Virus record (IMG/VR): IMGVR_UViG_3300031576_000016
Coordinates: 1 to 64,000 of that record
Reading direction: 5' to 3' (one strand)
Length of the DNA: 64,000 nt
Source: a virus
The notes beneath the pieces are model-generated. The model did not search any database and was not told where the DNA came from. It saw only the letters and a program-made list of their open reading frames with translations. Numbering within the stretch: the stretch's first letter is position 1; every line of letters starts with the position of its first letter. Both the position numbers and the translations under genes were made by a program. This document shows positions 3,728 to 64,000 of this stretch, piece after piece.

Positions 3728-3728
3728 G

Positions 3729-5510: not shown

Positions 5511-5511
5511 G

Positions 5512-6176: not shown

Positions 6177-6177
6177 G

Positions 6178-39910: not shown

Positions 39911-42900
39911 ATGGCTGATTTCAACATTGTTGCGAGACTTCAGATTCAGCTTCAAGCTGGGTCTGCGGCGGCTGCGGTGCAGCAGCTTCAACAGCAGCTG
40001 CGCAACGCGAACCTGTCGCTCGCCTTCGGCCTCCAGCCGCAAGCTCTTGGTGGTCTCAACAACCTCAACCAGGGGCTTCGCGCGACTCAGGCTGCGGCCT
40101 CAGCAACCTCCTCCTCTCTGCGCAGTACCACCCAGGTCATCAATGATGGCTCCACGGCCATCGAACGCTTTGGGGCTCAAGCCGGGCTCGCCGCTCGCCG
40201 CTTCATTGCCTTCACCGTAGGCGCGTCTACCATTGTGAAAGTCGCGCAAGCCTTTCGAGAAGGTATTGCGGCCGGTATTGATTTCAACCGCACGATGGTG
40301 AAGATTGCCCAGGTTGGCGGCGACACCAAGGGGCAGTTGGCTGAGCTTGCGTCAGAAGTGACCAGGCTCTCGACTACCTGGGGCATCTCGTCCAAAGAGC
40401 TTGCTAACGCGGCACTCGTTTTCAAGCAGGCCGGCTTGTCGGCTCAAGAAGTCAAGGGCCATCTTGAGACCCTTGCCCTCACGGACCTCGCGCCAAACTT
40501 CGAGTCGATGGCTCAGACGGCCGAAGGTCAAATCGCCATCTGGCGTCAATTCGGCACCAACGTAGACCAAACGCGCGAAGCCCTTGGTGCAGCCAACGCG
40601 GTTGCCGGCGGCTTTGCCGTTGAGTCGCGCGACCTTATCGAAGCCGTCCGCAAATCCGGCGGTGCGTTCAAGGCAGCTGGCGGCAGCTTCAACGAGTTCA
40701 TTTCTCTGTTCACAGCCGTGCGTAGCACGACACGAGAATCGGCCGCTGAAATCGCGACCGGTATGCGGACAATCTTCACCCGCATTCAGCGTCCTCAGAC
40801 TGTTGAGTCGCTCCGCGAACTCGGCGTGAATTTGCGGTACACAGCGGATGAAGCCAAGAATCTTGGTCGTGCCGACCTCGAAAATCAGTTCGTTGGTCCA
40901 TATGAAGCCGTGAGCCGCTTGAACGAGGCACTGCGGGACATTCCGACCACGGACCCGCGCTTCTTGCAGGTCATCGAGCAGCTTGGCGGCTATCGTCAGG
41001 TCAGCCGTGTTCTGCCGATGATTCTCCAGTTCAGTGAGGCTCAGAAGGCCCTGAACGTCGCTCAAACCGGCAGCCTGTCCCTGACAGCGGCAGCCGAGAA
41101 GTCTCAGGAATCGCTTGGCCGTCGCTTGAGCCAGGTCAACGAAGAGTTCCTTGGCTTCATGCGAAGCATCGTGGAGAGCAAGGGTTTCCAGAGCTTTGTG
41201 CGGTTCTCCCTGGACCTTGCCAGCGCACTCATCAAGGTCCTGGATGTGGCTCGGCCACTTATCCCGGTCATCACCACGCTCGCCGCAGTCCGTATCGCAC
41301 AGAATTTCGGCCAGACGGCCGGCGGCTTCCTCTCGCACTTCATCGGCACGGCCCCGGGCAGCTTCACTCCGAAAAAGGTTGAACCTGGCGTTCGCTTCGC
41401 CAAGGGCGGTTATGTTCCCGGCTCGGGAGCTACCGACTCGGTCGCGGCTCACGTCATGCCGGGCGAACACGTCACCAAGAAAGATTCGACGCAGTCGGTT
41501 GACCGCCGGTATCCTGGCTTCTTGACAGCCATGAACCAGGGGGGCGACATTGGCGTCGAGAACTATTTCCGACATCGTTTTGCCGATGGCGGCGAAGCCC
41601 GCCAAGGGTTCGGCTTTGGTGACACGGTCAAGTCACTTCTCGCGAATAGCGTTCTCGGCCTTGGACTGCTAACAGGCGTTGATTCCGGTGACGCCTACGA
41701 AGTCGCAAAACAGCGAAGTGGCGAACAAGTCGAGCACGTCCAGAAAAGCCTTCAGGAAGACGAGAAGAAGAAGCGCCAAATCAAGCAAGCTTTCGGCGGC
41801 GAGACGCCGCGTCAGCGCTTCGGCTTTGGTGACAGCGTCAAGAAGTGGCTCTCGACCGGAATCTTGGCAGCCGGCTCGCTCGTTGGTGGTCACGGCCTGG
41901 ACGACCAGGTTTCTGTTGGCCAACAGGAAAAGCGCGACCGCATCGAGAATGTGAAGGAGTCGCTTGAAGAAGAGCTTCGTCGCAAGAACAAGAAGAAGCC
42001 TCAGAAGCTCGGCAAGGGCGGTACGCCCGACCTGGTTGCCGCCGATGGCTCGATGGTTCTGCCTCTCATCGAGAAGCACTTCGACGATGTCAAGCAAGAC
42101 GACCGTGGTCGCTATGTTACAAAACAAAACAATCGCGATGTGTTCTTCGAGTACATGCCAAAAATCAACGCCCTGAAGATTGACTTCTTGCAGGACGGCA
42201 TCGGCGACTTCAAGCACACGAACAAGTCTCTCCAGAAGGGCACACTGTCCTTCCTGCGCAATCTCCAGGGCGTTGCCAAATCTGCTGGCCAAAAGGTATT
42301 CGGCATTGTTGCGGCGGGCTCGGAACAAAAGCGCTCGAAGATTTACAAAGAGGGTCTTGAAAAGCTCGGCTTTGTCGCAGACGACACGTGGTCGGAATAC
42401 TACAAGAAAGCCGCCTTCGGCGGCGAGATGCGGCTGGCCAAGGGCGGCGATGACATCTTCAGCAAGTTGCCGAAGTATCCAAAAGAGGATGAGTCTGAGC
42501 TTCCGCCACAATACGGCAACCCAATCAATGAGTTCATACAGAAGAAAACTGGCCTAAGTAAGAAAGAGATAACTGCCGCTGCTCTTGCCGGGAGCGTTGC
42601 CGCTAATGGACTCCTAGCTGCCACTAGCATGTGGATTCCAGGTTCGCAGCCGGTTGCTACCGGCATTACTGCTCTTGGAATCGCTGGTGTCAAGAAGTTA
42701 CTGAAAAAGCGCCGTGGCTTTGCTGGCGGTCTGGATGTCATGCCAGATGGTCAGCATGAGTCGCTTCGTAATCTGTACGACCAGGTCAAGGAATACGCAG
42801 AGACGCGATTCAGTGCTCACGCTGGCAGCCCGGAAAGCGACCAGAAGAAGAGCAAGGCAACCATCGCTCACATTCGCCGCCTGGCGGCTGCTACACTCAG

Positions 42901-45900
42901 CAGGAAGGAAGTGTTGCAGCGTATCCCGGCCGGCTCCTCGATTGCTGGCATCGGTGCCTTCGGTGTGGCTATCAAGACGCCCGATGGCGACGTGATTCGC
43001 GCTCAGGCCGACAAAGCACCGGACCTCGCAAACAAATACGCCGCTGAGATTGGACGCAAGCCGTTCAAGCCTTGGCAGTACGCAACCGCTCGCCCGCCTA
43101 TTGATGAAGTGTTGCAGCCGACAGCCACGATGACTGTCAAGAAGGGTGAACGCTCAACGTTCATGGAGCGTCTGCCTTATGTGACGCCGCTCACCGAGCT
43201 TCCTCACCATCAGCAGGAAGAAGCTCATGAGAAGGCCCAGGCAGAACTGTTGCCGTCGATGGCCAAAAAGGGCTGGATGCTTACTGACAAGCACAAGGGC
43301 AACCTAGCGGTTGACAAGGCCGGCCGGTTCATCGCGCTTGACCCGGCGACTGCCAAAAAGATGAATGAGGACCAGCAGTCGCGGCTTCTCAGGATTCTCG
43401 CTTCAGACAAAGCGGTTGCTACTGGCCTGCCAGGGGCTCAGGTCGATGAGTCTACGATTCACGACCCGCGTCTGAGTGTTAGCCCGCCAAGTCCAACAGT
43501 GCAGACGCGCGGTCGTAAAAAGTTCGACATCGGCGGCGAAGCCGCTTTGCCGGAAGCAATGAAGTTGTTGCAACAACGCTTCCAGACTTTCGACGTGTCG
43601 CGTATTGCTGAGAACGTGACGTTTCACGACAAGATTCCATCGAAGACTTTCCCAGAGCGTGGCGCGATTGGTAAGTTTTATCCGGAGACGGATGAAATTG
43701 CCCTTTCTCGCCAGTTGAAGTCTCCGCGCCTTCTTGCAAAGACGCTGCTTCATGAATTCGTTCATAGGATTGATTACGACGAGGGCACGCAAAAGCGGCA
43801 TGGCTCTCGCGACAAAAAGTCTGTTCCCGGCAAGTTGGCTGCGCAGCTTCAGCCTGCATGGTCTGAAATGGCGATGCAGAGATATTTCAAGGGTAAGACC
43901 AAGGAACAGTTGACTCCGAAGGAACAAGAGTCGCTGGCATATCTGACGGCTCCACATGAAGTTCTTGCCTACATGGTCTCGGACGTGGCCACTCGGGACA
44001 AGGACCAGGTTCCTGAAGAACATGAAAAGGCTGTGCAGACACTGCTCAGGCGTCACCTACCGGCTCGGCAACCGCAGAAGTACGAACGTGGCGGATGGGT
44101 TGTCCCTGGCGAAGGCAACACTGACTCCTTTCCTGCTGACCTTGCTCAGGGTTCGTATGTCATCCGGAAGTCCTCGGTTCAAAAGCTCGGCGCGTCCAAC
44201 ATCCTGAAGATGGCAACCGGCGGCACTGTCCCGGCATTGCTCATGCCTGGCGAGGTTGTTATTCCGCCAGGTAAGGCTCGTCAAATCGGTCGTCACGCTC
44301 TGACCGAGATGAACCTTCACGGCCGTATGCCGTTCGCTCAGGGCGGCTTTGTGCGGATGGCAACTGGCGACCAGGTGCCGAAACAGGAGACTGTCAAGGT
44401 CGGCGCGCTACCTGAACGTTTTCAGGATGACGTTGAAAGGATGTTTCGTGGACTTGGTGCCAAGGTTCAGAAGCCACTGCATGAACTTGAAGTGGTCATT
44501 GAGCGGTTCGGCAAGAACATTGTCCGCGTTGTGAAGATTGTCGATGTGGCTGTCACTTCTACCGCGTTGCCAAAATCGGCAGCTTCTGCTGCTACGACTC
44601 CAGCAACCAAGCCACAAACAGTGCCTGCGCTGCAAATAGTCCGGGACCTGAAAGCTCACTTGATTGCTCAGGCTGAGGCGGGTGGTAAGTCTGGCAAGCT
44701 TTCTTCCGAGCAGGTTGAGAAGCGCAAGGCTCGCTATGACAAAATGCTCAGTGAGGAAAATCCAGAACGGTCGCTAGAAAAGTATGCCAAGTTTCAAACG
44801 AAGGCCCCGTCCTTCAGTGGTTACTTGGACAAGCGAGACCGCAAGCAAGCTGCCGAGGACCTGAAGAGCACCATCTATACGTCGTACCTGGAGACTGGCA
44901 CGACTAGCAAATACAAGAGCGCCAAAACTCCCGAAGAACGTGGTCGCGTGTTAGCTACGGCTGTGCCAAAGTACATTCGTCAAAATCTTGCCGATTTTGA
45001 GGGTGGTACTGAGACTGGTCGCAGCTATGAGACTGCGAAGAAGACTCGTGGCCTAGAGAGTCAATATCAAAAGGCGCTGAGGACACAGTCGCCAGAAGAA
45101 GCTTTGAAGTCGGTTGTTTATCAGGCAACAGCAAAGCGCATCCAGTATGAAGAAAGCTCTCGTCAAAATAAGGGTAAAGCGCCACGAACCCAAAAAGAGC
45201 TTCAAGCTGCAATTGAGGAACGATACCAGACGCGCATGGGCAAGTATGATGCCCACGACTTTGAGGGGCCGGCTGCGGATGTGGCTCGCGCAAAACTGTT
45301 CGGGCACAAAGACCATATCAAACGCGGTGCCGAGGAAGCTTCTGCACGTACCGGCAAAAGCGTTGACGAAACCAGGGTCGATAGTCTTGAAGCACTCCAT
45401 AGTAGCCTTGGCGATAGTTCTCAGGCTGCGGCCATTTATCGTCAGCAACAAACCACCGGTCTCCAAAGCCAACTAAAGCGCGGTAAAATCAGCCAGGCTA
45501 CTTTTGAAAAGCGAGTGGCCAAGCTCGATTCTCTAAGCGACGATAAGGCATCGAAACTATTACTGTATACCAGGGATGGTACGCTGCGCGAGAAGGTTGG
45601 CAAGCAGCTTGCTGCCGCCGGCATTACCGCCGGTAAGACTCCTCAAGAGACTCGGGAGAACATTGGTAAACGCCTCCAGGAAATGAAGGGAGAGTTGGAG
45701 GCTGCTAAGCCGACAACGGTTCCCGAAGTTGCCGGTCGCGGCCTCACGCCGGAAGAGAAGCGTAAGCGACTCGTTGACCAAGAAGTTCGCGGTGCGACCC
45801 TAGAGTCCGACTTGACTCCAAGCAAAGCCGACTTGAAGGAGTTGCGCAAGGACCCGGCCTTTGTAAAACAAGAGAAGCAAGACGCTGCACCATCAGCCCC

Positions 45901-51900: not shown

Positions 51901-54900
51901 TTTCCGTTTTGCAACCGGCGGCACGGTTCCAAATGAACCAAGTCGCGTCTATCGGTCCTATGGCACTGACTCTGTGCCAGCCATGCTCACCCCTGGCGAG
52001 TTCGTGGTTCGGGCCGAAGCTGCGAGTGCCAACCGTGGACTTCTCGAAGCCATCAACCGCTCGAAGGGCGGTAGCGTCCAATACCACCAACGTGGTGGAG
52101 TCGCTTATCTGGCTGATGGTGGTTACGCAGATGATGAGCCGTGGGAAGTCAACGCTTACAACTCGCTGTACCGTCGCCGAAGCATGATTGGAGCCGGCGT
52201 TCTGGCTACCGGTGCTGCTTATCGTTATCGTAGTCAACTTGGCTCTGCTTGGCGAAACACCCTTGGTCGCGTTCCGGGTTTGAGATGGACAGCCGGGGGA
52301 ACTCCAGCAGCGGCAGCGGCTCCTACTACTACCGCTTCGCCGCCAACTCCGGTAGTGGAGCCTATGCCAGCATCCGTTCCGGCCACGCAGCCTCGTCAGG
52401 GGCTCCTTGGTCGCGTTCGCGGGTGGTTCGGCGGGACAGCCCCAGCACCTGTTCCTTCTCCTGCTAATACCGGAGCCGGCTATTTCACGGCACCGGCCGA
52501 CAATGTCGCGGCTGAGCTTGTTCCATCGCCTGCCCCTGCCGCTCCAGTAGACCCGGCTACCGCTCATACTGAACGTCTTAGTCGTCTGACTCCAGAAGCT
52601 CGTGCTCGCTACCAACGCATTATGGCGACCGAGCCAATCTCGCGTGCTGACGCTTTGGCAAGAGCAGAAGCGTACAACCAACGCATTTTGGGTGCTCAGA
52701 CACGAGGCGCAGAACGTGCTGCTGCTTACGGCCAACAGCAATCGAACTACGGCGCTGCACAACCACGCAATGCTCCGACGCAACCTGTGGCCAATGAGCC
52801 GCCAGGCTCAAATACGTGGTCGCGTCCAAATCGCGTTATTCCTCGTCCTTCCCCGACCGCCGCTACCACTTCGTCCCCAGCGGCAGCACCAGGCGCAACC
52901 CCAGCGCCTGTTGTTGAGGCTCCTGCTCCGGCTGCGGCTCCCCGCGCAACCGGAGCAGCCTCTACTCGCGTCACGCCAACAACCGCAACCGAGCCAGACA
53001 TCTATCGCTTGGCTCTCCAGGAGACGGCTGGCACACCACGTACTGGCCCAACCATTCGTCAGCTTCAAGCGACGAACGGAGCGGCTCAGGCTCCTCGTCC
53101 GCCTGTTCCGCAGGCAGCAGCGGCAACGCCAACACCAGTTGCACCCGTTCGCACACAGGTGACCGCTGGCCAAGGCATGGTAATCACGCTTGGCGCGAGC
53201 TTGGCCTGGAACCACCTGGCTCAGCAAGCCGGCTTCAATCAGAATGTCACCGACGCCGGCAACCTTGGCATTCTTGGCGGCGGCGTGGCATTGTCTACTC
53301 CGACCGTTGCTGGTGCTGGTCTGTCAGCAACCGTGGCTGCACCTGCGGCCATCATCGCTGCACCAGTGGCTGGTGTCATGGCCGGCAACATCATCGGTCG
53401 CAACGAAGACGCGACATCGCTGTTGACGACTGTCGTTCGTAATACGCCGACACCGCTGGCTGTCGCATACCGTGCGGCCGGCATCGACGAGGATGTGGCT
53501 CGCCGAGGCAGTCGCGAATATCAACGCATCTCTTCCAATGTTCACCAGGCACTGACAGTTCCTGGTGGTGATTGGGGACAACGCACTGCTGACGCAACTG
53601 CAAGCTGGGGTGAAAATGTGCCGGTAGCCGGACACATTGCTTCAGGTGTTGCGACATTTGGTGCTAACACAGGACGTGTGGTCACCGATGTTGTCACTGG
53701 CGTTGGTGCTGAATTGGCAACGCCGGTTGTCAACACGCTGGATGCTGGTGGTTCCTACATTCGTGCCAGCCAACAAGCGGCCTACACTGATGCTCGCGCA
53801 GCGTTCCAGCCATACTTCAGCAAGTATCTGGATGCCATCGAAGCTCGCCAAGATGAGCAGTTGAATGCGGCTGGCGCTTTGATTCCTTCGCTGAAGAGCG
53901 AAGTTGACGCCGCCATCGCTCAGACAGAATACCGCTCAGCGGTGCCGGAAGCTTCTCGCTCGTCGTTCTCCGCGCGTCTTGGTCGCATCTCGATTGGTAA
54001 GCCAACAGAGACCAGCCCAAACATCCTGAGCTTCATCGAAGACACATATGGTCAGGGTCACCTATGGAAGACAAATAATGGTGTTCACCTACAAGATGTG
54101 ATGCGGCAGCATGGCAGTCGCGTCGGCATGGGCGATGATGAAGGCGTTCGTATCGACTTCCAGAACCGCGCGAGTGAGAATCCGCGAGTCGGACGCGAAG
54201 CGATTTTCGCCAAGCTCCGTCAGCGCATCACTCAGCCTCTGGATGGAGCCGAAGGCCCGCGTCCTCGATTCGCTGTCATGGACCGTTTGCGTGACGCTTA
54301 CACTCCGGGCGACAACAACATCCGCACAATGATTGACCGGCTCCGTGGCGAAAGTGCTACCGAGCAAACAGTCCAGACGGACCGTCACACGACATTGCTG
54401 ACACAGGCGACTCAGTTGGACAATGACGAGCAACGCGCGGCATTGTTTGAACAGCCGACTCGGTTGCAGCAGCTACGCGAAAGTCTCCGGGCTCGTCGCG
54501 AAGTAGTGGCGGCTTTGGCAAACATGCCCGCCGACTACCGCAACTTGATGACATGGTACACCACTGGTTCGCCGCCGTGGATGCAACGCATTCGTCAGTA
54601 CCAGCAGGCAGCAGTTCTGGCTGGTCTCGACATCGAACGCGACCAAATGCTGACGCCTATCGGCTACGCAGCAGACCGGTTCTCGAACGAACAGCGCGAA
54701 CTCATCACCAATGTTCGCCGTGGTCAGATTGCTGAAATTCGCCGTCGTCAGAATGTGGATGCTCGGCTCGCCAATGGCGACACGCTCACGGCCATCTTGA
54801 ATGAGGTGCCGGCTGGGTGGAAGTCCATCTACGAACAGTCGATTCGCGAAACAGGCGGCAGCAATGCCGCAGAGACTGCTCACCTGACCGAGACAATGGG

Positions 54901-57900
54901 CGGCGTGGCCGGCGTCTATACTCGCGTTATTGGCGGCAACTTCGAGGGCAACAACTCGGCAGGCCAGCTTGCTTCGGCCGCGCGTTTGATTCCGGATGAT
55001 TTCCTACGTGCTCAGCTTTTGCCTGGTGGTCTTGAAGCCGACAACGCATTGTTCTCCTACCGGTCGAGTGACCTTCAGGATGCGATTGGGGCCGTTCGTC
55101 AACGACAGCTTCGCTTGCTACAAGAGGCCGGCGAAATCAATGCGGTTGGCGATGTGCCTCGTCAGCTTCGCAACGAAGGTGTCATCCCAGGCTTCGCTCC
55201 GCTCTCGTCCATTGCTCGTCAGTATCTGACTCCGCAGGCCCTGCCGCTTGATGCGTTCTTGGCCCAGGCCGGCAATTCGGAAGTGTCGCGTCGGTTCCGT
55301 CTGCGTGACGCTAACAACATCAAGCGTGAGAATCGCTCGTTCATGGCGATGCGACTCGACACGGCAGAAATCGCTGCTGCTCTGAATCCGCAGGCCGCGC
55401 CAGCCCCAGCCCCGAATGCAAACGTTCAACTCGCACGCGGCGGCATGGTCTATCTCGCCCAGGGCGGTATGCCTTCGCCGCTGTTCCAGCCGAGGGGCAC
55501 GGACACCATCCCGGCAATGTTGTCGAAGGGCGAATTCGTCGTCAACGCAGAAGCAACCAAGCAGCACCTGCCGCTTTTGGTGCAAATCAACGAGGGTCGT
55601 CGCCCATCCTACCGCGAAGACGGCGGGGCTGTTGGTGGAGCTATGTCGGCTGTCGCTGCGACTGCTTCTACGGCCCCATCCTCCCCTTCTCTGCTCAGTT
55701 CCGGAAACGAAGGCGACACCTATAACTTGGCCTCGATGCCGAGCAATGAACGCTTCTTGCTGACACAGACATTGTCTACTCTTGGCAAGCACCAGGTCGG
55801 CTCGATTCAAGACGCTGACGCTCGTCTGACGGGTCTCGAACAACGTTCGTCGAGCACCGCAGCCACTCAAGACAACCTGGCCGACGACCGCATCATTTTC
55901 GCGAAACTCGTGGCCGACAACATCGACGCCGGTCACCGCAATGCCGACGTGTTGGTCCGGTCGCAAACTAACCTTCAGAAACGGTTCTTCCTCCACTTGG
56001 GCGGCTCCCAGGACAAGTTCCTTGACAAGTTCGGCATGTCGCTCACTCTGGCTCCGAAGCTCGCGGCCAATGCCGCTCGCGCGGGTGACACGAACAATGT
56101 CTCGATGAAGCTCTTCCGCACCGGCGGCGTCGTTCAGTATTACGCAACCGGTGGTGAAACCAGCATGTTCCAGCCGCGCGGTTCGGACACAGTTCCGGCC
56201 ATGTTGAGCCATGGCGAGTTCATCGTCAATGCGGCCTCGACTCGGCACAACCTGGGTCTGTTGCGAAAAATCAACAACACCAAGGGTCCGGTCTATTATG
56301 CACGCGGGGGCCTGGTGGGTCCGGCCTACTTCTCTGAGGGTGGTCAGGCAGAACAACCGCAACCGCCGCCGATGCCGGCCACGCCGTCCGAGCCGATTTA
56401 CATCGACGAGGCAGGCCCGACTGTGGCTCAGCAGAATGCCGCAGCCGGCATTCAGGAATCTGGCGGCGAAGTTCCACAAGCCAGCAATGCTGCGGCTACG
56501 GCTCCAACTCCTGAGCTTCCGAGTCAGACGCCGTTTGGCGAAGACCCAGACCGCCCAGCAGCGGCCATGTTCCGGTTCGCGGCCGGAGGGTTCGTCCGTC
56601 CACGTTACTTGGCCCAGGGCGGACTTGTCAGCTACTTCGATGGCGGTGGACCTGTGCCGGCTCCGGCCCCAGCGGAAAGCCCTGAGCAACAACAGACCTT
56701 CCAACGATGGCGAGATTACCTGGCTGAGCCGGCGAATCAAACGCCGCCTCAAATCCAGATGTTGGAAGGGTGGTTCAATCGCGGCTTCGGTGCCAATGGT
56801 TGGGACCGCGCGGCATTGCGTGCTCGCCTGGCCCGAGACGGCAATCGTCTATCTCCACGTTGGCGAGGTTTCTTCCAGGCATGGTCTGGATGGGTCGGTC
56901 GTCAAAACACCGAGCGCGATGCAGCCGCACAAGCTCGTCTGGAAACATTCCGTCGTACCTTGGTGCCGACTGTCGGCGGCGCGCCAGCCGCGCCTCTGCC
57001 GCCCGAACAGGCAGAAGCTCGTTACCAGGCCGAGTATCGTCGTCTCCGCGACATCTGGACTCGTGGCGGCAATCCACTTCAGGGCAATCTCGAAGGCGAC
57101 GACGTTGAGGCGTCGGTCAATCAGGAAACAACTGCGGCCATCGCTGCCGGTCGTGCGAATTTCCAGTTCCTCAGTCCGGAACAGCGTGCTCGCTATCGCA
57201 TCCTTCGTGAAATGCAAGGTGCCCAGGTTCGCCAGCGCACGGCTCGCGGACAGGCCCTGACGTTCACCGGCGGTCCAACAGCTGACAACGCGCAAGGACG
57301 CGCTCTTGGCGAAGGCATTACAGGTCAGCAGGCATTCGCAGCGGCTCCTGGCGCTGTGGCCGAAGAGAACCTGTCTCCGACCGAGCAGGCTGTCCTTGAG
57401 GAAGAATATCGCTTCGCGGCTCAGGACCGTTTCAATCGTGAGACCCAAGGTCTGACGACTCTCGAACAGTTGACGCAATACTGGCAGCCGCGCGAAGGAC
57501 AGTCGAGCCCAGCATTCCGCCAGGCGTTCCGCGCGAACTCCAGTCGATACACGCCTCAGCAACGGGCAGAGATTCAGGCTCAATGGGACTTCTACGACGC
57601 CTACCTCGCACGCCGGCCGGCTCTCGAAGCGGCTCAACAGCAAGCGCGCGAACAGCAACGTCAGCAGGAAGCACAGCGTCAGCGTGAGGCTCAGGAACGC
57701 GAGACCGCCAACCAGCGCGTGCAAACGTTCCGCGACCAGCAGGCCGCGCTCGACCAGGAAATTCAGTTCCAGGCTGCCGTCAATCCGAATGGCGGCTCGG
57801 CGAACTTCCTACGTGAACGTCAAGCCGGCGAGCAGTTCAACCAGAACATGCAGCGTTTCAACGCTCGTTGGGGCGAACTCGAAAATCGTGACCGCAACGG

Positions 57901-58786
57901 CCGCGAAGAACGCGAATGGAATCGGATGCAGGCCCAATGGCGTCAAGTCGAACGCCAGGGTGGTGAAGATGGGGCACGTCGCTTGTTCGTGGCCCAGAAC
58001 GCGGCTCAGGCCCATCAGGGCGCGGCCATCCAGAACTTGCAGCGCCGGCAGTTCATTGCCAACGCTCAGCAGCCGTTCCAGGCATTCGGCTTCTCCCGGC
58101 CTGGCATCGAAGGTCAGCGTCAGGCGGATGTCGCCGTGCTCGCCCAGCGTCAAAACTGGAACCAGCAGGTGCTCCTCCAGGACTTCAACGCTCGCCGGTT
58201 GCTTGGACAGCAGCCCGGCTTCCCGGTGCCGGCACGTGCCTTCGCTGAGGGCGGCGTCGTTCCTGGCAGCGGCGTCCACGACACTGTGCCTTCCCTGCTC
58301 ACTCCAGGTGAGTACGTCCTGAATCGCCACGCTGTCCAGCGGATTGGTGTTGGCAACCTCCACAGCATGAACCATTTCGCAAATGGCGGCTTGGTGGGCG
58401 GCGTGAACTACCTGGCCGGCGGCGGACAGGCCACAGGGTCTGGTGTGGGCATCAATCCGGAAGTCGCTCAGGCGTTCAGTCGCTTCGGTGACACCGTGGT
58501 TCAGATGGGCGGCGGCTTCAACGTCTTCAACGCAAGTGTGCAGCAGTTGACCAGTGCGTTTAGTATCTTCGGGGAACGTTCGTCCAAACTCACCGACGCC
58601 CTGAACAACTTCCCGGGCACGCTCAATATCCAAGGACATCAAACGGTGGAACTCATTCTCAACGGAGCCGAAGTTCTCGCAAGTATGCAAGGGGACTTGC
58701 AGGCTCTGGTCCAGGACGCAGTCAAGACGGTCGTTCGCGAACGCCTTGGCGGTATCCTCTCTGATGCCGGCGTGCAACTGGAGTAA
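39911..58786 (+). CDS. Giant tail tape-measure protein (6,291 aa) with embedded kinase-like and zincin metallopeptidase domains
   Basis: N-terminal TP901-type TMP core (..AVESRDLIEAVRKSGG...TTRESAAEIATGMRTIFTRI), glycine zippers, coiled coils, repeated TDxxPAxLxxGE motifs; canonical position. Confidence 0.9.
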   Translation: MADFNIVARLQIQLQAGSAAAAVQQLQQQLRNANLSLAFGLQPQALGGLNNLNQGLRATQAAASATSSSLRSTTQVINDGSTAIERFGAQAGLAARRFIAFTVGASTIVKVAQAFREGIAAGIDFNRTMVKIAQVGGDTKGQLAELASEVTRLSTTWGISSKELANAALVFKQAGLSAQEVKGHLETLALTDLAPNFESMAQTAEGQIAIWRQFGTNVDQTREALGAANAVAGGFAVESRDLIEAVRKSGGAFKAAGGSFNEFISLFTAVRSTTRESAAEIATGMRTIFTRIQRPQTVESLRELGVNLRYTADEAKNLGRADLENQFVGPYEAVSRLNEALRDIPTTDPRFLQVIEQLGGYRQVSRVLPMILQFSEAQKALNVAQTGSLSLTAAAEKSQESLGRRLSQVNEEFLGFMRSIVESKGFQSFVRFSLDLASALIKVLDVARPLIPVITTLAAVRIAQNFGQTAGGFLSHFIGTAPGSFTPKKVEPGVRFAKGGYVPGSGATDSVAAHVMPGEHVTKKDSTQSVDRRYPGFLTAMNQGGDIGVENYFRHRFADGGEARQGFGFGDTVKSLLANSVLGLGLLTGVDSGDAYEVAKQRSGEQVEHVQKSLQEDEKKKRQIKQAFGGETPRQRFGFGDSVKKWLSTGILAAGSLVGGHGLDDQVSVGQQEKRDRIENVKESLEEELRRKNKKKPQKLGKGGTPDLVAADGSMVLPLIEKHFDDVKQDDRGRYVTKQNNRDVFFEYMPKINALKIDFLQDGIGDFKHTNKSLQKGTLSFLRNLQGVAKSAGQKVFGIVAAGSEQKRSKIYKEGLEKLGFVADDTWSEYYKKAAFGGEMRLAKGGDDIFSKLPKYPKEDESELPPQYGNPINEFIQKKTGLSKKEITAAALAGSVAANGLLAATSMWIPGSQPVATGITALGIAGVKKLLKKRRGFAGGLDVMPDGQHESLRNLYDQVKEYAETRFSAHAGSPESDQKKSKATIAHIRRLAAATLSRKEVLQRIPAGSSIAGIGAFGVAIKTPDGDVIRAQADKAPDLANKYAAEIGRKPFKPWQYATARPPIDEVLQPTATMTVKKGERSTFMERLPYVTPLTELPHHQQEEAHEKAQAELLPSMAKKGWMLTDKHKGNLAVDKAGRFIALDPATAKKMNEDQQSRLLRILASDKAVATGLPGAQVDESTIHDPRLSVSPPSPTVQTRGRKKFDIGGEAALPEAMKLLQQRFQTFDVSRIAENVTFHDKIPSKTFPERGAIGKFYPETDEIALSRQLKSPRLLAKTLLHEFVHRIDYDEGTQKRHGSRDKKSVPGKLAAQLQPAWSEMAMQRYFKGKTKEQLTPKEQESLAYLTAPHEVLAYMVSDVATRDKDQVPEEHEKAVQTLLRRHLPARQPQKYERGGWVVPGEGNTDSFPADLAQGSYVIRKSSVQKLGASNILKMATGGTVPALLMPGEVVIPPGKARQIGRHALTEMNLHGRMPFAQGGFVRMATGDQVPKQETVKVGALPERFQDDVERMFRGLGAKVQKPLHELEVVIERFGKNIVRVVKIVDVAVTSTALPKSAASAATTPATKPQTVPALQIVRDLKAHLIAQAEAGGKSGKLSSEQVEKRKARYDKMLSEENPERSLEKYAKFQTKAPSFSGYLDKRDRKQAAEDLKSTIYTSYLETGTTSKYKSAKTPEERGRVLATAVPKYIRQNLADFEGGTETGRSYETAKKTRGLESQYQKALRTQSPEEALKSVVYQATAKRIQYEESSRQNKGKAPRTQKELQAAIEERYQTRMGKYDAHDFEGPAADVARAKLFGHKDHIKRGAEEASARTGKSVDETRVDSLEALHSSLGDSSQAAAIYRQQQTTGLQSQLKRGKISQATFEKRVAKLDSLSDDKASKLLLYTRDGTLREKVGKQLAAAGITAGKTPQETRENIGKRLQEMKGELEAAKPTTVPEVAGRGLTPEEKRKRLVDQEVRGATLESDLTPSKADLKELRKDPAFVKQEKQDAAPSAPEKAWTQPAAAAQTVALPTKVDAVKKSVPRPTDRQQLERRLNELEGVDVPSAHEMKEIADIHRQLKNQKTPVPPQQQTGRGRVRDTLAPSDLRDIQEQTKDLVVPEAAISSASDKLKAGPTAQVARQEREARDKKPSPIILPGDQPAGPPRPLFIPGQTQAQPDAKVFTSEADFRRSQQPSAKIVTGDETPVPSLVQPTREEVKKYGRSAAGPTAVAAAAKQPRDIRRIMDKLATSGLVEDLEVPGKGADPRAKKGLLRYLKQYGEEIEKAGKGTLSRRLQKLARKAPDWQPSLRGILPAPEEDTTTFSFAEEAAAATKSKPRPSKKTKELDLAVGYKEPKVEFTFPEEKAPLPLESDVNQKSRLRREQEEEAKKRHKNAVDLASQPSHKLQGDAATVPVSLTKEEIISKTVSDFAPTGEPKEPDVPASLFDKDKKKKQTSRQEHLKKERQRFIKEEGVTEEAIAFRERMLDSTKSLDEARKLIASPEFDGHEKINPYFDVYAQERHGQKKKRKPKTCGLAPEQSFFDKPTPQPRPTSSLPPPPSGKVPETYSFAGDPPESKRYHVEGDPLHPAQQQGGEHRSRDFYRTLYNSTTAGDTLGYTKKTRRELAKAKDALDQARLDAAADPTDDNRLRFKEAGRAYDKLEKQKVVVGRREADPYYARRLLDQAKSELLPHEYKAFEAETRRVHPNLASQGGDPTILRQYKEGKSDDEIRDNHYGQTGRRVGLFGGAAIGGAVGSLFGPLGTVLGGTIGAAVGQKIAKALPGSAAFEESLAEKGTGNVSVGHIAEYKTDKETGQKRLIGGDLREKGQAELTKYLAGRGPVSDATKHAFETEAIGRAEARVKRELISAQERWLKAVHPNISATEKHKLALEQVDAALAGQAKVVKSSTGRYLGVETEHTKASDLDKATGAGGVGFQFRSAKGAIGDWMADKYRSLKAGYEKFESSKAGQVLSGAGSFLSSQPVTFLAPLLGGQIEQSAGTAENAVKAGASGEGTYTTRRGIGGAATGAILGATVGSIAGPIGAAVGGAAGALVGFTSAIKDAANEIREVKIGNALTIISDRLTTIANVPVRTLPGGQATADDPLVRSSMADVLRELTTSRNETLDKNISESSGFWRSAGAVFGISNPVDVQGLAARQESADRQQVSQILPQSTQIINRQAEVLLRNNPNIGARDVARRLSTEGLTGQLIPRIAQARRVPLEQYLDELALQVAQVNTRLRAELAQHQAREGQEKVIHTFGRLVLAVQSASDSLVTLRAQAQSMSDVFYGNVTATPVTAHSEALTQLGRQDRGAIRPLETISHVVGDERGNRLLEHGRATDDVARVLPAILARVGSTNPLEPSDFSRQVREQLVSAFGGTPTGGQNAAINTVLSEIQRVGATGGTAQILREMQIDATEFTQKLINPLADPLKKFGQQVAQDLEKAGKEFTENVNEFVRRTRVAGESMDRLAALRVTTARVRAEVTAQQSGRPNDVLSQLSLQTLQSGLQSRQERLTGVVGPAASNPDFIGRQLQTVRARINEATHRQQETFELTGGRGPAYEAAALQLARLKDQAANLQNALKHLADVSERNAAAQEKLGALKQEADARIGLGERYLRADGEEMMRLNRGSLLVNQAYSRPQGQRGLDNLSVEDRRLALDWVGAARGTRLQGFQGSPLADDVHRTLIQESAGGAFNLTAGQQNEMQELQRVLLANAATAEQAQNQLITFQRESAGEFFQNLTQQHEQFFSRLEQTLARDRLFEQQNRLNEVATQQASLQGLNTNRETLQRAGVTNDDQVRNLRSNRGLVSEYMGRVSEVQALRQRSSNPSGAADIFERTYGDRLGSQFSDAGGWGINIGQMGLSSGSIGRLTENVRNTTGFTPEQTQRVISRFLQRSENITGQTGSANTRSAVTANIEEAIRREQALQSQEAQQRLAPLENNLRGRQINVGGLSQAAASGNSNALLQAIDSFDGVSNSFTTLDTRIQNTAASFINLSNSVRTLQTRVDNNNPNAGGNPFRFATGGTVPNEPSRVYRSYGTDSVPAMLTPGEFVVRAEAASANRGLLEAINRSKGGSVQYHQRGGVAYLADGGYADDEPWEVNAYNSLYRRRSMIGAGVLATGAAYRYRSQLGSAWRNTLGRVPGLRWTAGGTPAAAAAPTTTASPPTPVVEPMPASVPATQPRQGLLGRVRGWFGGTAPAPVPSPANTGAGYFTAPADNVAAELVPSPAPAAPVDPATAHTERLSRLTPEARARYQRIMATEPISRADALARAEAYNQRILGAQTRGAERAAAYGQQQSNYGAAQPRNAPTQPVANEPPGSNTWSRPNRVIPRPSPTAATTSSPAAAPGATPAPVVEAPAPAAAPRATGAASTRVTPTTATEPDIYRLALQETAGTPRTGPTIRQLQATNGAAQAPRPPVPQAAAATPTPVAPVRTQVTAGQGMVITLGASLAWNHLAQQAGFNQNVTDAGNLGILGGGVALSTPTVAGAGLSATVAAPAAIIAAPVAGVMAGNIIGRNEDATSLLTTVVRNTPTPLAVAYRAAGIDEDVARRGSREYQRISSNVHQALTVPGGDWGQRTADATASWGENVPVAGHIASGVATFGANTGRVVTDVVTGVGAELATPVVNTLDAGGSYIRASQQAAYTDARAAFQPYFSKYLDAIEARQDEQLNAAGALIPSLKSEVDAAIAQTEYRSAVPEASRSSFSARLGRISIGKPTETSPNILSFIEDTYGQGHLWKTNNGVHLQDVMRQHGSRVGMGDDEGVRIDFQNRASENPRVGREAIFAKLRQRITQPLDGAEGPRPRFAVMDRLRDAYTPGDNNIRTMIDRLRGESATEQTVQTDRHTTLLTQATQLDNDEQRAALFEQPTRLQQLRESLRARREVVAALANMPADYRNLMTWYTTGSPPWMQRIRQYQQAAVLAGLDIERDQMLTPIGYAADRFSNEQRELITNVRRGQIAEIRRRQNVDARLANGDTLTAILNEVPAGWKSIYEQSIRETGGSNAAETAHLTETMGGVAGVYTRVIGGNFEGNNSAGQLASAARLIPDDFLRAQLLPGGLEADNALFSYRSSDLQDAIGAVRQRQLRLLQEAGEINAVGDVPRQLRNEGVIPGFAPLSSIARQYLTPQALPLDAFLAQAGNSEVSRRFRLRDANNIKRENRSFMAMRLDTAEIAAALNPQAAPAPAPNANVQLARGGMVYLAQGGMPSPLFQPRGTDTIPAMLSKGEFVVNAEATKQHLPLLVQINEGRRPSYREDGGAVGGAMSAVAATASTAPSSPSLLSSGNEGDTYNLASMPSNERFLLTQTLSTLGKHQVGSIQDADARLTGLEQRSSSTAATQDNLADDRIIFAKLVADNIDAGHRNADVLVRSQTNLQKRFFLHLGGSQDKFLDKFGMSLTLAPKLAANAARAGDTNNVSMKLFRTGGVVQYYATGGETSMFQPRGSDTVPAMLSHGEFIVNAASTRHNLGLLRKINNTKGPVYYARGGLVGPAYFSEGGQAEQPQPPPMPATPSEPIYIDEAGPTVAQQNAAAGIQESGGEVPQASNAAATAPTPELPSQTPFGEDPDRPAAAMFRFAAGGFVRPRYLAQGGLVSYFDGGGPVPAPAPAESPEQQQTFQRWRDYLAEPANQTPPQIQMLEGWFNRGFGANGWDRAALRARLARDGNRLSPRWRGFFQAWSGWVGRQNTERDAAAQARLETFRRTLVPTVGGAPAAPLPPEQAEARYQAEYRRLRDIWTRGGNPLQGNLEGDDVEASVNQETTAAIAAGRANFQFLSPEQRARYRILREMQGAQVRQRTARGQALTFTGGPTADNAQGRALGEGITGQQAFAAAPGAVAEENLSPTEQAVLEEEYRFAAQDRFNRETQGLTTLEQLTQYWQPREGQSSPAFRQAFRANSSRYTPQQRAEIQAQWDFYDAYLARRPALEAAQQQAREQQRQQEAQRQREAQERETANQRVQTFRDQQAALDQEIQFQAAVNPNGGSANFLRERQAGEQFNQNMQRFNARWGELENRDRNGREEREWNRMQAQWRQVERQGGEDGARRLFVAQNAAQAHQGAAIQNLQRRQFIANAQQPFQAFGFSRPGIEGQRQADVAVLAQRQNWNQQVLLQDFNARRLLGQQPGFPVPARAFAEGGVVPGSGVHDTVPSLLTPGEYVLNRHAVQRIGVGNLHSMNHFANGGLVGGVNYLAGGGQATGSGVGINPEVAQAFSRFGDTVVQMGGGFNVFNASVQQLTSAFSIFGERSSKLTDALNNFPGTLNIQGHQTVELILNGAEVLASMQGDLQALVQDAVKTVVRERLGGILSDAGVQLE

Positions 58787-63200: not shown

Positions 63201-64000
63201 ACGCGAAGTTCATGTCGCATTACCAGGACCCTACCCTTCACTGCTCAGTTGACCGTTACTCATTGGACCCCTGGAAGGACTACAATGATATCGAAGCATT
63301 CCTATGGGGTGAGGAATATGAGGGGCTTCACGCATATCGACGTGGTGTTCGTAGAGATGCTCGTGCTGTCGGGCTCCGTGCGCCATTGGTCATGAGCGGC
63401 TGGGGTTACGATACCGATGGTAGGCCAACTCCACGTCTCGAAGGCGTTATTGTTGGCATTAGTGGTGGCTGTCCATATGTCGTTTATAGTCCAGGGCACG
63501 GTCTCGCTAGTGGCTATAAGCTTTTCATTTCCGAATCGAGCAACACCACAATCAACGACCGCGAGTGGCCGGTCACAGTTATTGATGCTGACTACTTTGA
63601 GCTTACTGGCTCTTGTGTCAGTCCGGATGATAGCAGTAGTAGTTATAGCGGGTCGGAATCGTGGTCTTCTAATAGCTCATCGAGTTCTGTTTCAGCTTCT
63701 TCTGATTCGTCGCTGAGTTCTTCTTCGACTTACTCTTCGAGTTCTACTTCAAGTTCGAGTAGCTCTGCTTCGAGTGACAGTGACTCTTCCGCTTCGAGTA
63801 TGTCCGATGCGTCCTCGGGCTCTACTGGTAGCAGCGAGTCGTCCTCCAGTGTACTCAATACGTCCGAGTCCAGCTATACACAGAGCAGTAGTTCGTCCTG
63901 GAGCACTTCGAGCGATTCGTCGTCTACGTCGCTTTCGTCTTCGTCCGACTCCAGCTTCAGTTCGGTGAGCAATGCGTCTTCTGATAGCACCGAGTCACAA
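60263..64000 (+). CDS. Baseplate hub / central tail fibre protein, partial; Ser-rich C-terminal part (not in ORF track)
   Basis: ATG at 60263 (MPFTRTTFLGASI...). The segments I translated (start, about 61.3-61.5 kb, 63.2-64 kb) are in one stop-free frame. It contains two E1-FCCH-like beta domains and is Ser-rich from about 63630. Confidence 0.75.
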   Translation, partial: MPFTRTTFLGASIRGFNTAIGWNGQQSTLTVQLVVDPLNGDVFNPPPVGTPIYFQVGYFYFFGLLQKWEKKNDKDGLPTYEAVCVDPKEILDGAQVILGGYSGTTTGIPNLYNAFGFWESTGFGNSYTNESGMPWFRAMSALTTMANTFGGTPFGGPLNFRGYTYSLDLSRLPVPPSYYRVGNVSASVLELIQQICEDAQCDFTVELFGYQIRIRTVSRFAQPPLGTINAITSTNWGGTVVRSNSGLECRNELTTAFLVGGDVNTLYETQGIVQFWGYDLAGSPLTGTDTYFWYPRMVLNPPAPAYAVDAKKRFPVPVISATRPADWDAYRWPDPAPTGPGTQNGYIWARKSLRITAATNATPIVVTTAEPHLFTTGTKVTVAGCLGNTAANGAAWVITYRTATSFSLDTSAGNGNYTGSGTVIWDTVGAGIPAGVVNIGRFTWSNQRQGGELLQGESMTLNATAVAGILGSTTYDCSTFEMRCAQANMESWSSYMHAVRPDMAQRIGLTSRVRNMHPVEGVVLPRDAFNDDAAAVQRRQLMAVQGDLAQKEVAMWQFVKSRADEFMGKKFLVGLPFILQAQDPETLHLKSSYKVTDAGYLPEGATPLGLTSLNEDTFKTQDGRFKAFVKFDNLVGADFEKISAQGTVVENNVLFMDVQVQPNIVFAPAPSAVVTLSGPLLDKVDSGVTGDMSIIAAILQMNPPQAQQVLQAGQQGTVGVRCSPRTRNPAAIAVPLQSNIMTYGPWWAVGAPGKVKFEHDQGLTPWNYGSYTNMANAGLARVGTIISTMQVSEAGTIELAGAPMRPMGGMFSLGDVLSANGPNMTNMDVNYNTNGVTTSFHFKTYTPRFGVFTKGYTERLKKLGQTAQELRRAMRLSFKEQQEVQTAQGEAARTNRRFLEGAPPAVLRESPSELFVARLFHDPNGGATRVGVAVTTTKEGLEFVNAATDGIRDAKADEAYQSTAAMDLAGLFRPFSTRHNAKFMSHYQDPTLHCSVDRYSLDPWKDYNDIEAFLWGEEYEGLHAYRRGVRRDARAVGLRAPLVMSGWGYDTDGRPTPRLEGVIVGISGGCPYVVYSPGHGLASGYKLFISESSNTTINDREWPVTVIDADYFELTGSCVSPDDSSSSYSGSESWSSNSSSSSVSASSDSSLSSSSTYSSSSTSSSSSSASSDSDSSASSMSDASSGSTGSSESSSSVLNTSESSYTQSSSSSWSTSSDSSSTSLSSSSDSSFSSVSNASSDSTESQ

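What the first reader, a model, noticed from the sequence alone, without database searches (positions are those of the whole stretch)
39911..58786. Tape-measure protein built as a motif-delimited effector polyprotein
Seen: the 6,291-aa ORF starts as a normal TMP but carries about 20 or more short [FYLM]-A/x-x-GG motifs. It also has about 7 copies of a longer GG..(G)TD(S/T)xPAxLxxGE(F/Y)V unit, at about 41396, 44078, 44210 (partial), 51908, 55450, 56140 and 58241. Between 41.4 and 44.4 kb the GG motifs fall precisely at the edges of unrelated modules: two paralogous TM units, a GNAT-like block, a TM peptide, a kinase and a peptidase. Known: TMPs are ejected into the host and are often proteolysed. 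At about 0.15 nm per residue a pure ruler would give a tail of about 0.9 um. Inference: the motifs are processing or recombination junctions, and the tail lumen delivers a cassette of host-takeover enzymes before any phage gene is expressed.
Basis: partly seen in the sequence, partly recalled or inferred. Interest (0 to 1): 0.92.

Follow-up and report, generated by a model that had tools for sequence, protein, structure and literature searches.

The report
Giant tape measure with swappable enzyme cassettes
This 6,291-residue gene is the tail "ruler" protein of a large uncultured phage; a short joint known from phage lambda's ruler, repeated seven times, divides it into sections, and one section holds enzyme-like modules that related phages swap at Gly-Gly linkers, so the tail probably carries ready-made proteins into the host, though neither delivery nor cutting at the joints has been shown.

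Summary
The ORF (39911-58786, 6,291 aa) is real. It starts as a TP901-type tape measure protein (TMP) and has 28 [FYLM]xxGG motifs, against about 7 expected by chance.

The long unit matches the element at aa 734-790 of lambda gpH, inside the fragment that lambda cuts off during tail maturation. All 120 compared proteins of an uncultured giant-TMP family (3.5-7.7 kaa) carry it, mostly in 4-7 copies. At least 468 IMG/VR contigs encode relatives of the N-terminal domain. The units are conserved islands between hypervariable segments.

In the first slot (aa 545-1392):
- The kinase call is supported by a predicted fold.
- The zincin call is supported by invariant HExxH, Tyr and Glu.
- The GNAT label has no support.

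Relatives carry ADP-ribosyltransferases in the same slot. Close relatives exchange whole modules exactly at a GG junction, so the recombination-junction reading is supported. Cleavage at the motifs and delivery of effectors remain inferred. Only about 13% of the protein is cassette, and the rest looks like ruler or is unknown.

Published precedents are polyvalent proteins, the P23-45 TMP-fused RNA polymerase and the TM4 hydrolase motif. This scan has already reported the same kind of protein in at least 14 other genomes.

The parts
39911..58786 (+). Tape measure protein gene, 6,291 aa plus stop
   Evidence: Single open frame. Family members of 3.5-7.7 kaa share the same layout.
39911..41395 (+). 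Conserved N-terminal TMP domain (aa 1-495), including PF10145 PhageMin_Tail at aa 150-360
   Evidence: Pfam E 3e-24, 86 bits against a cut-off of 33. PHROG TMP families match. Aligns to 119 of 119 family proteins.
41399..41542 (+). gpH-C-type unit 1 (aa 497-544)
   Evidence: Unit HMM E 5e-13
41579..42022 (+). Two paralogous ~72-aa units, each a hydrophobic stretch followed by a charged helix (aa 557-628 and 629-704). Each ends in xxGG.
   Evidence: BLASTP 38% identity, E 3e-12; hydrophobic segment at aa 572-590
42023..42448 (+).
   Evidence: No Pfam hit. ESM atlas best score 0.77 with no family. Homologues found only in P0124 and P0128.
42449..42730 (+). Linker with a hydrophobic Gly/Ala-rich peptide (aa 847-940, hydrophobic at 887-909), ending in GFAGG
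   Evidence: Hydropathy scan; sequence
42731..43537 (+). Truncated protein-kinase-like module (aa 941-1209), bounded by GFAGG and FDIGG
   Evidence: AF2 pLDDT 79.9. Foldseek gave at least 500 PDB hits; every row shown is a kinase, nearly all protein kinases (plus AceK), at probability 1.0 and TMq about 0.42. ABC1 E 2e-4, below cut-off. ESM neighbours are SteC and Kinase-PolyVal. DxHxGN and DPG are conserved in homologues.
43538..44080 (+). Zincin-like module (aa 1210-1390, HEFVH at aa 1281-1285), bounded by FDIGG and YERGG
   Evidence: H, E, H, D, Y and E are invariant in 11 aligned copies. 31 copies occur in 22 proteins. Pfam and PDB give only sub-threshold matches, the recurring ones being zincin families.
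44087..44317 (+). Tandem units 2 and 3 (aa 1393-1469)
   Evidence: Unit HMM E 6e-13 and 3e-10. A tandem pair is typical of the family at this position.
44348..48070 (+). Lys/Glu/Arg-rich low-complexity segment (aa 1480-2720), unique to this protein
   Evidence: No family BLAST hits; composition; no Pfam hit
48308..51880 (+). Conserved TMP core (aa 2800-3990). Gly-zipper hydrophobic segments lie at aa 3001-3040 within it and at aa 2723-2747 just upstream.
   Evidence: Aligned in about 50 of 119 relatives. Weak Gly-zipper Pfam hits. Hydropathy scan.
51911..52060 (+). Unit 4 (aa 4001-4050)
   Evidence: Unit HMM E 1e-17. AF2 of aa 3992-4082 gives no compact fold, pLDDT 60.
52163..55420 (+). Unique segment (aa 4085-5170): Ala/Pro-rich, a hydrophobic stretch at aa 4459-4491, then unassigned sequence that is almost free of lysine
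   Evidence: No relatives. No PDB or Pfam hit. Composition.
55433..55597 (+). Unit 5 (aa 5175-5229)
   Evidence: Unit HMM E 5e-17
56120..56278 (+). Unit 6 (aa 5404-5456)
   Evidence: Unit HMM E 8e-15
56279..58225 (+). Cluster of tandem short GG motifs (aa 5463-5580), then a unique Gln/Arg/Ala/Glu-rich segment with no lysine
58244..58375 (+). Unit 7 (aa 6112-6155)
   Evidence: Unit HMM E 5e-20. tblastn hits TMPs in 304 phage records.
58376..58783 (+). Conserved C-terminal tail (aa 6156-6291). By position it corresponds to the tip-bound end of lambda gpH.
   Evidence: Aligned in the family. Lambda C-terminal helix in the tail tip: PMC10721106, PMC12617516.

Best explanation
This is the tape measure protein of a large uncultured long-tailed phage. 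It belongs to a widespread uncultured family of giant TMPs.

A constant backbone is present: the PF10145 N-terminal domain, a helical core with Gly-zipper hydrophobic segments, and a C-terminal tip end. This backbone is divided by seven copies of a 45-60-aa unit that ordinary TMPs such as lambda gpH carry once or twice near the C-terminus. The segments between units vary freely.

The first slot lies next to the N-terminal domain, so by the known orientation of TMPs it sits at the head-proximal end and leaves last. It is an array of small modules joined by [FYLM]xxGG linkers. In this phage the array holds two membrane-type units, an unknown block, a hydrophobic peptide, a truncated protein kinase and a zincin peptidase. 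Relatives hold other modules there, including ADP-ribosyltransferases. Modules are exchanged between phages at the linkers.

Most likely the whole chain still sets tail length. At infection it leaves the tail ahead of the DNA, taking the modules into the envelope and cytoplasm.

Shown: anatomy, homology, the kinase fold, motif conservation, and module exchange at the junctions. Inferred: ejection, enzymatic activity, and action on the host. Cleavage at the linkers is possible but is not needed for this reading.
For: TMP identity.

Family size and layout:
- 163 proteins of 3.5-11 kaa at E <= 0.001.
- 468 IMG/VR contigs.
- 657 units in 120 of 120 proteins, with a shared order of parts.

Units as conserved islands between unique segments.

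The unit matches lambda gpH aa 734-790 at E 6e-8. It occurs in TMPs of 304 cultured-phage records.

Module evidence:
- Kinase fold. Conserved catalytic-type motifs. The truncated form fits the PolyVal kinase described in PMC5512222.
- Zincin invariants.
- ADP-ribosyltransferases above the Pfam cut-off in slot 1 of four relatives, each bracketed by GG motifs (three on both sides, one upstream only).

Module edges lie close to the motifs. For the kinase the median distance is 38 aa upstream and 39 aa downstream, against 139 and 148 at random. For the zincin it is 20 aa upstream against 220.

Independent assortment in a close clade: P0032 shares module I with P0022 at 96% identity but with P0033 at 22%. 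It shares module II with P0033 at 94% but with P0022 at 30%. The switch lies at the GG junction.

Unit copies within this gene are only 63-76% identical at DNA level, so the peptide is under selection. The gene was split in 1 of 96 loci only.

Precedents: P23-45 gp96, a TMP with an active virion RNA polymerase (PMC10770324); TM4 mt3 (PMC1796659); lambda gpH* ejection and channel (PMC12617516).
Against: There is no direct evidence that any module is active or reaches the host.

In this protein all enzyme calls fall below curated Pfam cut-offs. The kinase has Arg where the ATP-binding Lys is expected, and its model rests on only 4 sequences.

Most of the variable sequence, about 3,800 aa, matches no enzyme family and looks like low-complexity ruler.

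Nodularia phage 2AV2 has a 3,404-aa TMP with two units (units scanned in the close relative kac65v151) and a 795-nm tail (PMC6293099). So giant TMPs that carry units can be used in full as rulers.

The host is unknown. Relatives appear only in MAG bins from many phyla.
Confidence: 0.68

Rival explanations
1. Processed polyprotein. The [FYLM]xxGG linkers or the units are cleavage sites. The cutter is the embedded zincin or an unknown tail-maturation protease. The TMP is therefore cut into separate effectors, either in the tail or after ejection.
For: Lambda gpH is cut in the Gly-rich region just upstream of its single unit, giving gpH* and gpHC. T5 pb2 is also cut (PMC12617516).

The linkers and unit flanks are predicted disordered, so they would be accessible.

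A zincin sits in the cassette. Zincins were proposed as processing enzymes of polyvalent proteins (PMC5512222).
Against: No cleavage data exist for this family. The lambda site and protease are unknown.

The zincin is present in only 22 of 128 proteins, whereas the motifs are in all of them, so it cannot be the general cutter.

No JAB, NlpC/P60 or C39 peptidase was found in the 93.6-kb record, which is incomplete.

The junction conservation extends beyond GG, for example GGxIYRQRFMxG. That also fits a docking or recombination role.
Confidence: 0.27
2. Pure ruler. The whole chain only sets an extreme tail length of about 0.9-1.5 um. The units are repeated docking points for tail assembly, for example for chaperones or tube initiation. 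The enzyme-like modules are captured sequence without function in the host.
For: 2AV2 has a 3,404-aa TMP and a 795-nm tail, about 0.23 nm per residue (PMC6293099). P23-45 has a 5,002-aa TMP and an extremely long tail (PMC10770324).

Most variable segments are low-complexity. The unit has no fold of its own.
Against: Catalytic-type residues are conserved across diverged copies of the kinase and zincin. The ADP-ribosyltransferase domains in relatives score above curated cut-offs.

Modules are kept intact while being shuffled, which indicates selection on the modules themselves.

In P23-45 the TMP-fused enzyme is active and is used (PMC10770324).
Confidence: 0.12
3. Artefact. The giant ORF is an assembly chimera or a run-on of several genes.
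For: GC content and lysine content change along the gene.
Against: The same protein is on a 194-kb contig. Dozens of independent assemblies give collinear 4-7.7-kaa proteins. Units fall in a single ORF in 95 of 96 loci.
Confidence: 0.02

Closest known systems
Phage lambda gpH (tape measure), matured to gpH* plus gpHC
   Same: The unit at aa 734-790 is the same: FATGG...GEFV...IGxGNL...YATGG. A Gly-rich hydrophobic stretch lies upstream of it and the tip-bound C-terminal end lies downstream. The protein is ejected and forms the channel for the DNA (PMC12617516).
   Different: Lambda has one unit and 853 aa, with no enzyme modules. This protein has seven units, 6,291 aa and variable cassettes. 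Its N-terminal domain is TP901-type (PF10145), not lambda-type.
Polyvalent proteins of phages and conjugative elements (Iyer et al. 2017, PMC5512222)
   Same: Many unrelated effector-type domains (ADP-ribosyltransferase, truncated kinase, zincin) sit in one virion-associated polypeptide. Domains are extensively shuffled. Zincins were proposed there as processing enzymes. Relatives of this protein carry PF18760 ART-PolyVal.
   Different: Those proteins are described as head-packaged (MuF or portal fusions) or as transferred by conjugation. Neither the 2017 paper nor the 2022 follow-up that were searched mentions a tape measure. Here the carrier is the TMP, with its own repeated unit and GG linker.
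Thermus phage P23-45 gp96 (also P74-26, G20c, TSP4); Chaban et al. 2024, PMC10770324
   Same: A giant TMP (5,002 aa) that carries a cytoplasm-acting enzyme in its N-terminal part, plus metallopeptidase and membrane domains. There is experimental proof that the fused enzyme works early in infection.
   Different: The enzyme there is one fixed virion RNA polymerase at the N-terminus. No sequence relationship was detected: tblastn searches of the phage collection returned no Thermus record among those tallied or listed. No swappable cassette array or repeated gpH-C units have been reported for it, and gp96 itself was not scanned here.
TMPs with embedded cell-wall hydrolase motifs (mycobacteriophage TM4 gp17 mt3, PMC1796659; T5 pb2; SPbeta YomI)
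   Same: An enzyme motif sits inside the ruler. It is dispensable for assembly and still counts toward tail length.
   Different: Those enzymes act on peptidoglycan during entry. Here, and in relatives, the modules are of types that act on proteins or nucleotides inside cells (kinase, ADP-ribosyltransferase).
Nodularia phage vB_NpeS-2AV2 / kac65v151 TMP (cultured)
   Same: A very long TMP (3,404 and 3,282 aa) with internal copies of the same unit. The tail of 2AV2 is 795 nm (PMC6293099).
   Different: It has two units, was not retrieved by the N-terminal-domain search, and no enzyme cassette was identified.

Membership tests
Tape measure protein, TP901 / PF10145 type | PhageMin_Tail domain above the curated cut-off | tested here: met
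   86.3 bits against a cut-off of 33.2, aa 150-360
Tape measure protein, TP901 / PF10145 type | Located in the late or structural gene block, downstream of terminase and head genes and upstream of large tail-tip genes | tested here: inconclusive
   Terminase large subunit lies at 24565-26709 on the same strand. The neighbouring genes have no Pfam or PHROG match.
Tape measure protein, TP901 / PF10145 type | Protein length sets tail length | not testable with these tools
   Needs electron microscopy of virions. Precedents: PMC1796659, PMC6293099.
Lambda gpH C-terminal unit | [FY]AxGG ... PA..(L/V)..GE(F/Y)V ... G..L..(M/I)N ... [FY]AxGG | tested here: met
   The HMM built here hits lambda gpH aa 734-774 at E 6e-8 and finds seven copies in this protein.
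Lambda gpH C-terminal unit | Maturation cleavage next to the unit | not testable with these tools
   The site and protease are unknown even in lambda (PMC12617516).
Polyvalent proteins (Iyer et al. 2017) | Several unrelated enzymatic domains in one phage virion-associated polypeptide | tested here: met
   Kinase fold plus zincin motif in this protein. ADP-ribosyltransferases, a sigma-70 r2 domain (sub-threshold when rescanned in P0007) and a nuclease in relatives.
Polyvalent proteins (Iyer et al. 2017) | Match to PolyVal-specific Pfam families | tested here: not met
   None in this protein at E <= 1. Only an ESM-feature neighbour with PF18762. Relatives P0025 and P0037 do match PF18760.
Protein kinase-like superfamily | Bilobal kinase fold | tested here: met
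   AF2 pLDDT 79.9. At least 500 Foldseek hits; the rows shown are kinases at probability 1.0. TMq is about 0.42 because the C-lobe is truncated.
Protein kinase-like superfamily | Catalytic D...N and metal-binding D conserved; ATP-binding Lys in strand 3 | tested here: inconclusive
   DxHxGN and DPG are conserved in 8 of 9 homologues, but the strand-3 position is Arg (VIRxQ).
Protein kinase-like superfamily | Curated Pfam score | tested here: not met
   ABC1 21.2 bits against a cut-off of 22.9
Zincin metallopeptidases | HExxH plus a downstream third ligand | tested here: met
   H, E, H, D, Y and E are invariant in 11 of 11 aligned copies. The HExxH...Y...E pattern is as in the lethal-factor / MtfA type.
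Zincin metallopeptidases | Curated Pfam score or solved-structure match | tested here: not met
   Best results are SprT-like E 0.014, M90 0.0011 and a PDB profile hit at 0.094, all below threshold.
GNAT acetyltransferase | Any sequence or feature match to GNAT | tested here: not met
   No Pfam hit at E <= 1. ESM atlas best score 0.77 with no family.

The most novel reading that the evidence does not exclude
The [FY]AxGG junctions and gpH-C units may be sites of a conserved tape-measure maturation cleavage. This would be the same reaction that turns lambda gpH into gpH* and gpHC, whose site and enzyme have been unknown for 40 years. If so, giant TMPs would be true polyproteins that release a phage-specific, recombinationally reshuffled set of separate effectors into the host before any phage gene is expressed.
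Probability: 0.25. Interest if true: 0.85.

Novelty: new variant of a known kind. Interest (0 to 1): 0.6.

Why it matters
If the cassette is delivered, the long non-contractile tail is a second store of pre-made host-manipulating proteins alongside the head. Its contents are reshuffled between phages at a fixed linker, so it would form a large, unexplored pool of early-acting effectors (kinases, ADP-ribosyltransferases, peptidases).

The family also ties a widespread TMP element to the still unexplained maturation cut of lambda gpH. That gives a concrete motif to mutate in a model phage.

It also warns that tail length cannot be read from TMP length without checking what the extra sequence is.

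Tried and rejected
DNA for the kinase homologues could not be fetched, so the kinase alignment has only 4 rows.
- Scans for kinase-module loci found nothing in viral contigs or metagenome contigs.
- Global alignments of modules against whole giant proteins (A1, A4, A7) were misaligned and were not used.
- Sequence searches of the PDB with the cassette, with two variable segments and with the kinase profile gave nothing.
- A lambda gpK-like (JAB + NlpC/P60) or C39 double-glycine peptidase was sought as the GG cutter. None is present in the 93.6-kb record, which is about 61% complete.
- The GNAT label was rejected.
- An HPD motif that looks like a J-domain was seen in relatives P0019, P0020 and P0036 (an HSD variant in P0027). 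Pfam did not confirm it in P0036 and P0027, the two that were scanned.
- AF2 of the unit alone gave no confident fold: pLDDT 60, pTM 0.31. It was not sent to fold search.
- Host assignment failed. Relatives occur only in MAG bins from many phyla, the closest labelled Gemmata.
Full report
**The object.** The window is part of a 93,578-bp IMG/VR virus record that CheckV rates about 61% complete. A single + strand frame runs from 39911 to 58786 and encodes 6,291 residues. The identical protein is on record from a 194-kb contig. A terminase large subunit lies upstream on the same strand. Most neighbouring genes match nothing in Pfam or PHROGs, so this phage is far from cultured ones. The first 500 residues are a TP901-type tape measure domain: PF10145 scores 86 bits against a cut-off of 33, and many PHROG TMP families match.

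**The motifs.** [FYLM]xxGG occurs 28 times against 7.1 +/- 2.6 in shuffled sequence. [FYLM]AxGG occurs 16 times against 1.0. Its consensus is AKGGLVPGPGGTDTVPAMLTPGEFVVNKKAAQKIGLGLLEAINSG, usually closed by a second [FY]AxGG. At DNA level the copies are only 63-76% identical over 41 nt. They are therefore old copies kept by selection on the peptide, not recent duplications.

**What the unit is.**
- The same HMM hits lambda gpH at aa 734-774 (E 6e-8), followed by YATGGYV.
- This part of gpH lies in gpHC, the ~14-kDa C-terminal fragment cut off in the Gly-rich region during tail maturation. The cut site and the enzyme are unknown, and residues ~690-817 are not resolved by cryo-EM (PMC12617516).
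- tblastn with single units hits annotated TMPs in 100 and 304 cultured-phage records, including Gordonia, Escherichia, Mycobacterium, Burkholderia and Nodularia phages. Most of the listed records show one or two matching places.
- Folded alone with a 75-sequence alignment, the unit has no compact structure (pLDDT 60, pTM 0.31). Only the PAMLTPGEFV stretch and the following helix reach pLDDT 71-81, and the GG flanks stay low. It looks like a linear element that needs a partner, not a domain.

**The family.**
- A search with the N-terminal 500 residues among proteins of 3,460-11,010 aa gave 163 hits at about 40-50% identity, with lengths up to 7,724 aa.
- Patterns from the family alignment found 468 IMG/VR contigs. 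Hits in species genomes are all MAG bins spread over many phyla, so the host is unknown.
- All 120 proteins examined carry the unit: 657 copies in total, mostly 4-7 each. The order of parts is shared: N-terminal domain of about 500 aa; unit 1; slot 1 of 180-1,500 aa; a tandem unit pair; a long segment; further units about 1,000 aa or less apart; a last unit; and a C-terminal tail of 110-220 aa.
- BLAST of this protein against the other 119 shows conservation only in the N-terminal domain, the units, a core at aa 2800-3950 (about 50 proteins) and the C-terminus. Residues 560-1350, 1500-2800, 4100-5150 and 5500-6050 are essentially unique.
- Units fall in more than one ORF in only 1 of 96 loci. 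The chain is therefore kept in one piece.

**The cassette (aa 545-1392).** A full-library HMMER search with this stretch found only 8 other proteins. Most of them are giant, and at least one is confirmed as a TMP.
- **Kinase-like module.** It recurs in 15 of 128 proteins at different positions. In eight of the nine aligned copies it follows a [FYL]xxGG motif, and in nearly all copies another such motif follows it. IPxGSxFxGxG, VIRxQ, DxHxGN and DPG are conserved, but the strand-3 lysine is Arg. AF2 of aa 976-1190 gave pLDDT 79.9 with a four-sequence alignment. Foldseek returned at least 500 PDB matches; every row shown is a kinase, nearly all protein kinases (plus AceK), at probability 1.0 with TMq about 0.42. 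This fits a kinase that lacks most of the C-lobe, which is how Iyer et al. describe the kinase of polyvalent proteins. ESM features point the same way, to SteC and to PF18762. Pfam ABC1 stays just below its cut-off.
- **Zincin module.** It recurs 31 times in 22 proteins. Eleven aligned copies have invariant HExxHxxD, Tyr and Glu. Pfam and PDB give only sub-threshold matches; the recurring ones are zincin families.
- **Other modules.** The two TM units are paralogues. The 'GNAT-like' block has no support.

**Relatives and exchange.**
- Four relatives carry ADP-ribosyltransferase domains above curated cut-offs in slot 1: PF18760 in P0025 and P0037, and PF03496 in P0007 and P0055. Each is bracketed by GG motifs, three on both sides and P0037 clearly only upstream. 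Precomputed annotations add a nuclease, sigma-70 region 2 and EF-hands in others.
- Module starts lie a median of 38 aa (kinase) and 20 aa (zincin) after a motif, against 139 and 220 aa for random positions. BLAST alignment ends are 2.8-fold enriched within 10 aa of a motif.
- A clade of seven proteins has unit 1 at 86-98% identity. Within it, P0032 shares module I with P0022 (96%) but not with P0033 (22%). It shares module II with P0033 (94%) but not with P0022 (30%). The switch lies at the junction RANGG(S/P)IYRQRFM. This is direct evidence for cassette exchange at the junctions.

**How it most likely works.**
- The C-terminus of a TMP sits in the tail tip and leaves first (PMC10721106, PMC12617516). 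Slot 1 is therefore at the head-proximal end and would enter last, just ahead of the DNA. That suits enzymes that act inside the cell.
- The Gly-zipper hydrophobic segments (aa 2723-2747, 3001-3040, 4459-4491) fit the channel-forming role known for gpH*.
- Delivery of a TMP-fused enzyme has been shown for Thermus phage P23-45, whose 5,002-aa TMP carries an active virion RNA polymerase (PMC10770324).
- Ruler and cargo are not alternatives. Deleting the 114-aa hydrolase motif of TM4 shortens the tail by about 20 nm (PMC1796659). Nodularia phage 2AV2, with a 3,404-aa TMP whose close relative kac65v151 carries two units, has a 795-nm tail.
- For this phage that implies a tail of roughly 0.9 um or more, if all of the chain is measured.

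**What is not shown.**
- Cleavage at GG is untested. The embedded zincin cannot be the general cutter, because it is present in only 22 of 128 proteins. No JAB, NlpC/P60 or C39 peptidase was found in the incomplete record.
- Activity of the modules and their entry into the host are inferences.
- Only about 13% of the chain is recognisable cassette. The remaining variable sequence is low-complexity and unassigned.

**Comparison and novelty.**
- The concept overlaps with polyvalent proteins (PMC5512222) and with the P23-45 TMP fusion. It also overlaps with TMPs that hold cell-wall hydrolases.
- Three things are not in those papers as far as the searched library shows: a large family in which the TMP is the carrier; the lambda-type unit multiplied as a partition; and module exchange at a fixed GG linker.
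- This scan has already reported the same kind of protein in at least 14 other genomes with similar verdicts. One of those notes supplied the P23-45 reference, which was then read and checked here.
- The rating is a new variant of a known kind, and this protein is one more member of it.

Noticed in passing
window 48900-58786 (aa ~3000-6291 of the TMP): Lysine is almost absent from the C-terminal half, with K-free runs of 469, 585 and 767 aa. In contrast, aa 600-2900 have 7-12% Lys. GC content is about 0.55 at 42-52 kb and about 0.60 on either side. The family as a whole shows no such bias (Lys 7.6% against 7.3% in the two halves). This suggests a mosaic origin or a phage-specific selection against Lys.
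   Followed up: partly
relatives P0019, P0020, P0027, P0036 (slot 1): A module with an HPD or HSD motif in a context like that of a DnaJ J-domain (...VNHPDRNPGG...) moves between positions in this clade. Pfam DnaJ did not match in the two proteins scanned.
   Followed up: partly
relatives P0042, P0007, P0094, P0070, P0049: Other giant TMPs of the family carry Pfam matches to sigma-70 region 2, staphylococcal nuclease, EF-hands and an E3-binding domain. Most come from precomputed annotations; only the sigma-70 r2 match of P0007 was re-seen, at E 3e-4.
   Followed up: partly
protein P0125 (529 aa, from the representative search): This short stand-alone protein has a coiled-coil N-terminus, a degenerate unit, GG linkers and the same kinase module. 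GG-delimited modules therefore also occur outside giant TMPs. Its genomic context could not be fetched.
   Followed up: no
L102 (Nodularia phage vB_NpeS-2AV2) 8983-19197: This cultured phage has a 3,404-aa TMP and a reported tail of 795 nm. That is about 0.23 nm per residue, well above the usual 0.15.
   Followed up: partly
window 60263-64000 (ORF running off the window): A large protein downstream of the TMP (more than 1,245 aa) has a weak match to the E1 FCCH domain (E 5e-4, below cut-off). It is probably a tail-tip protein.
   Followed up: no
L085-L101 (species-genome contigs): Family contigs are binned into MAGs of unrelated phyla, including Gemmata, SAR202, Flavobacteriales, Saccharibacteria and even an archaeon. 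This pattern is typical of phage contigs misplaced by binning, so those labels should not be read as hosts.
   Followed up: no
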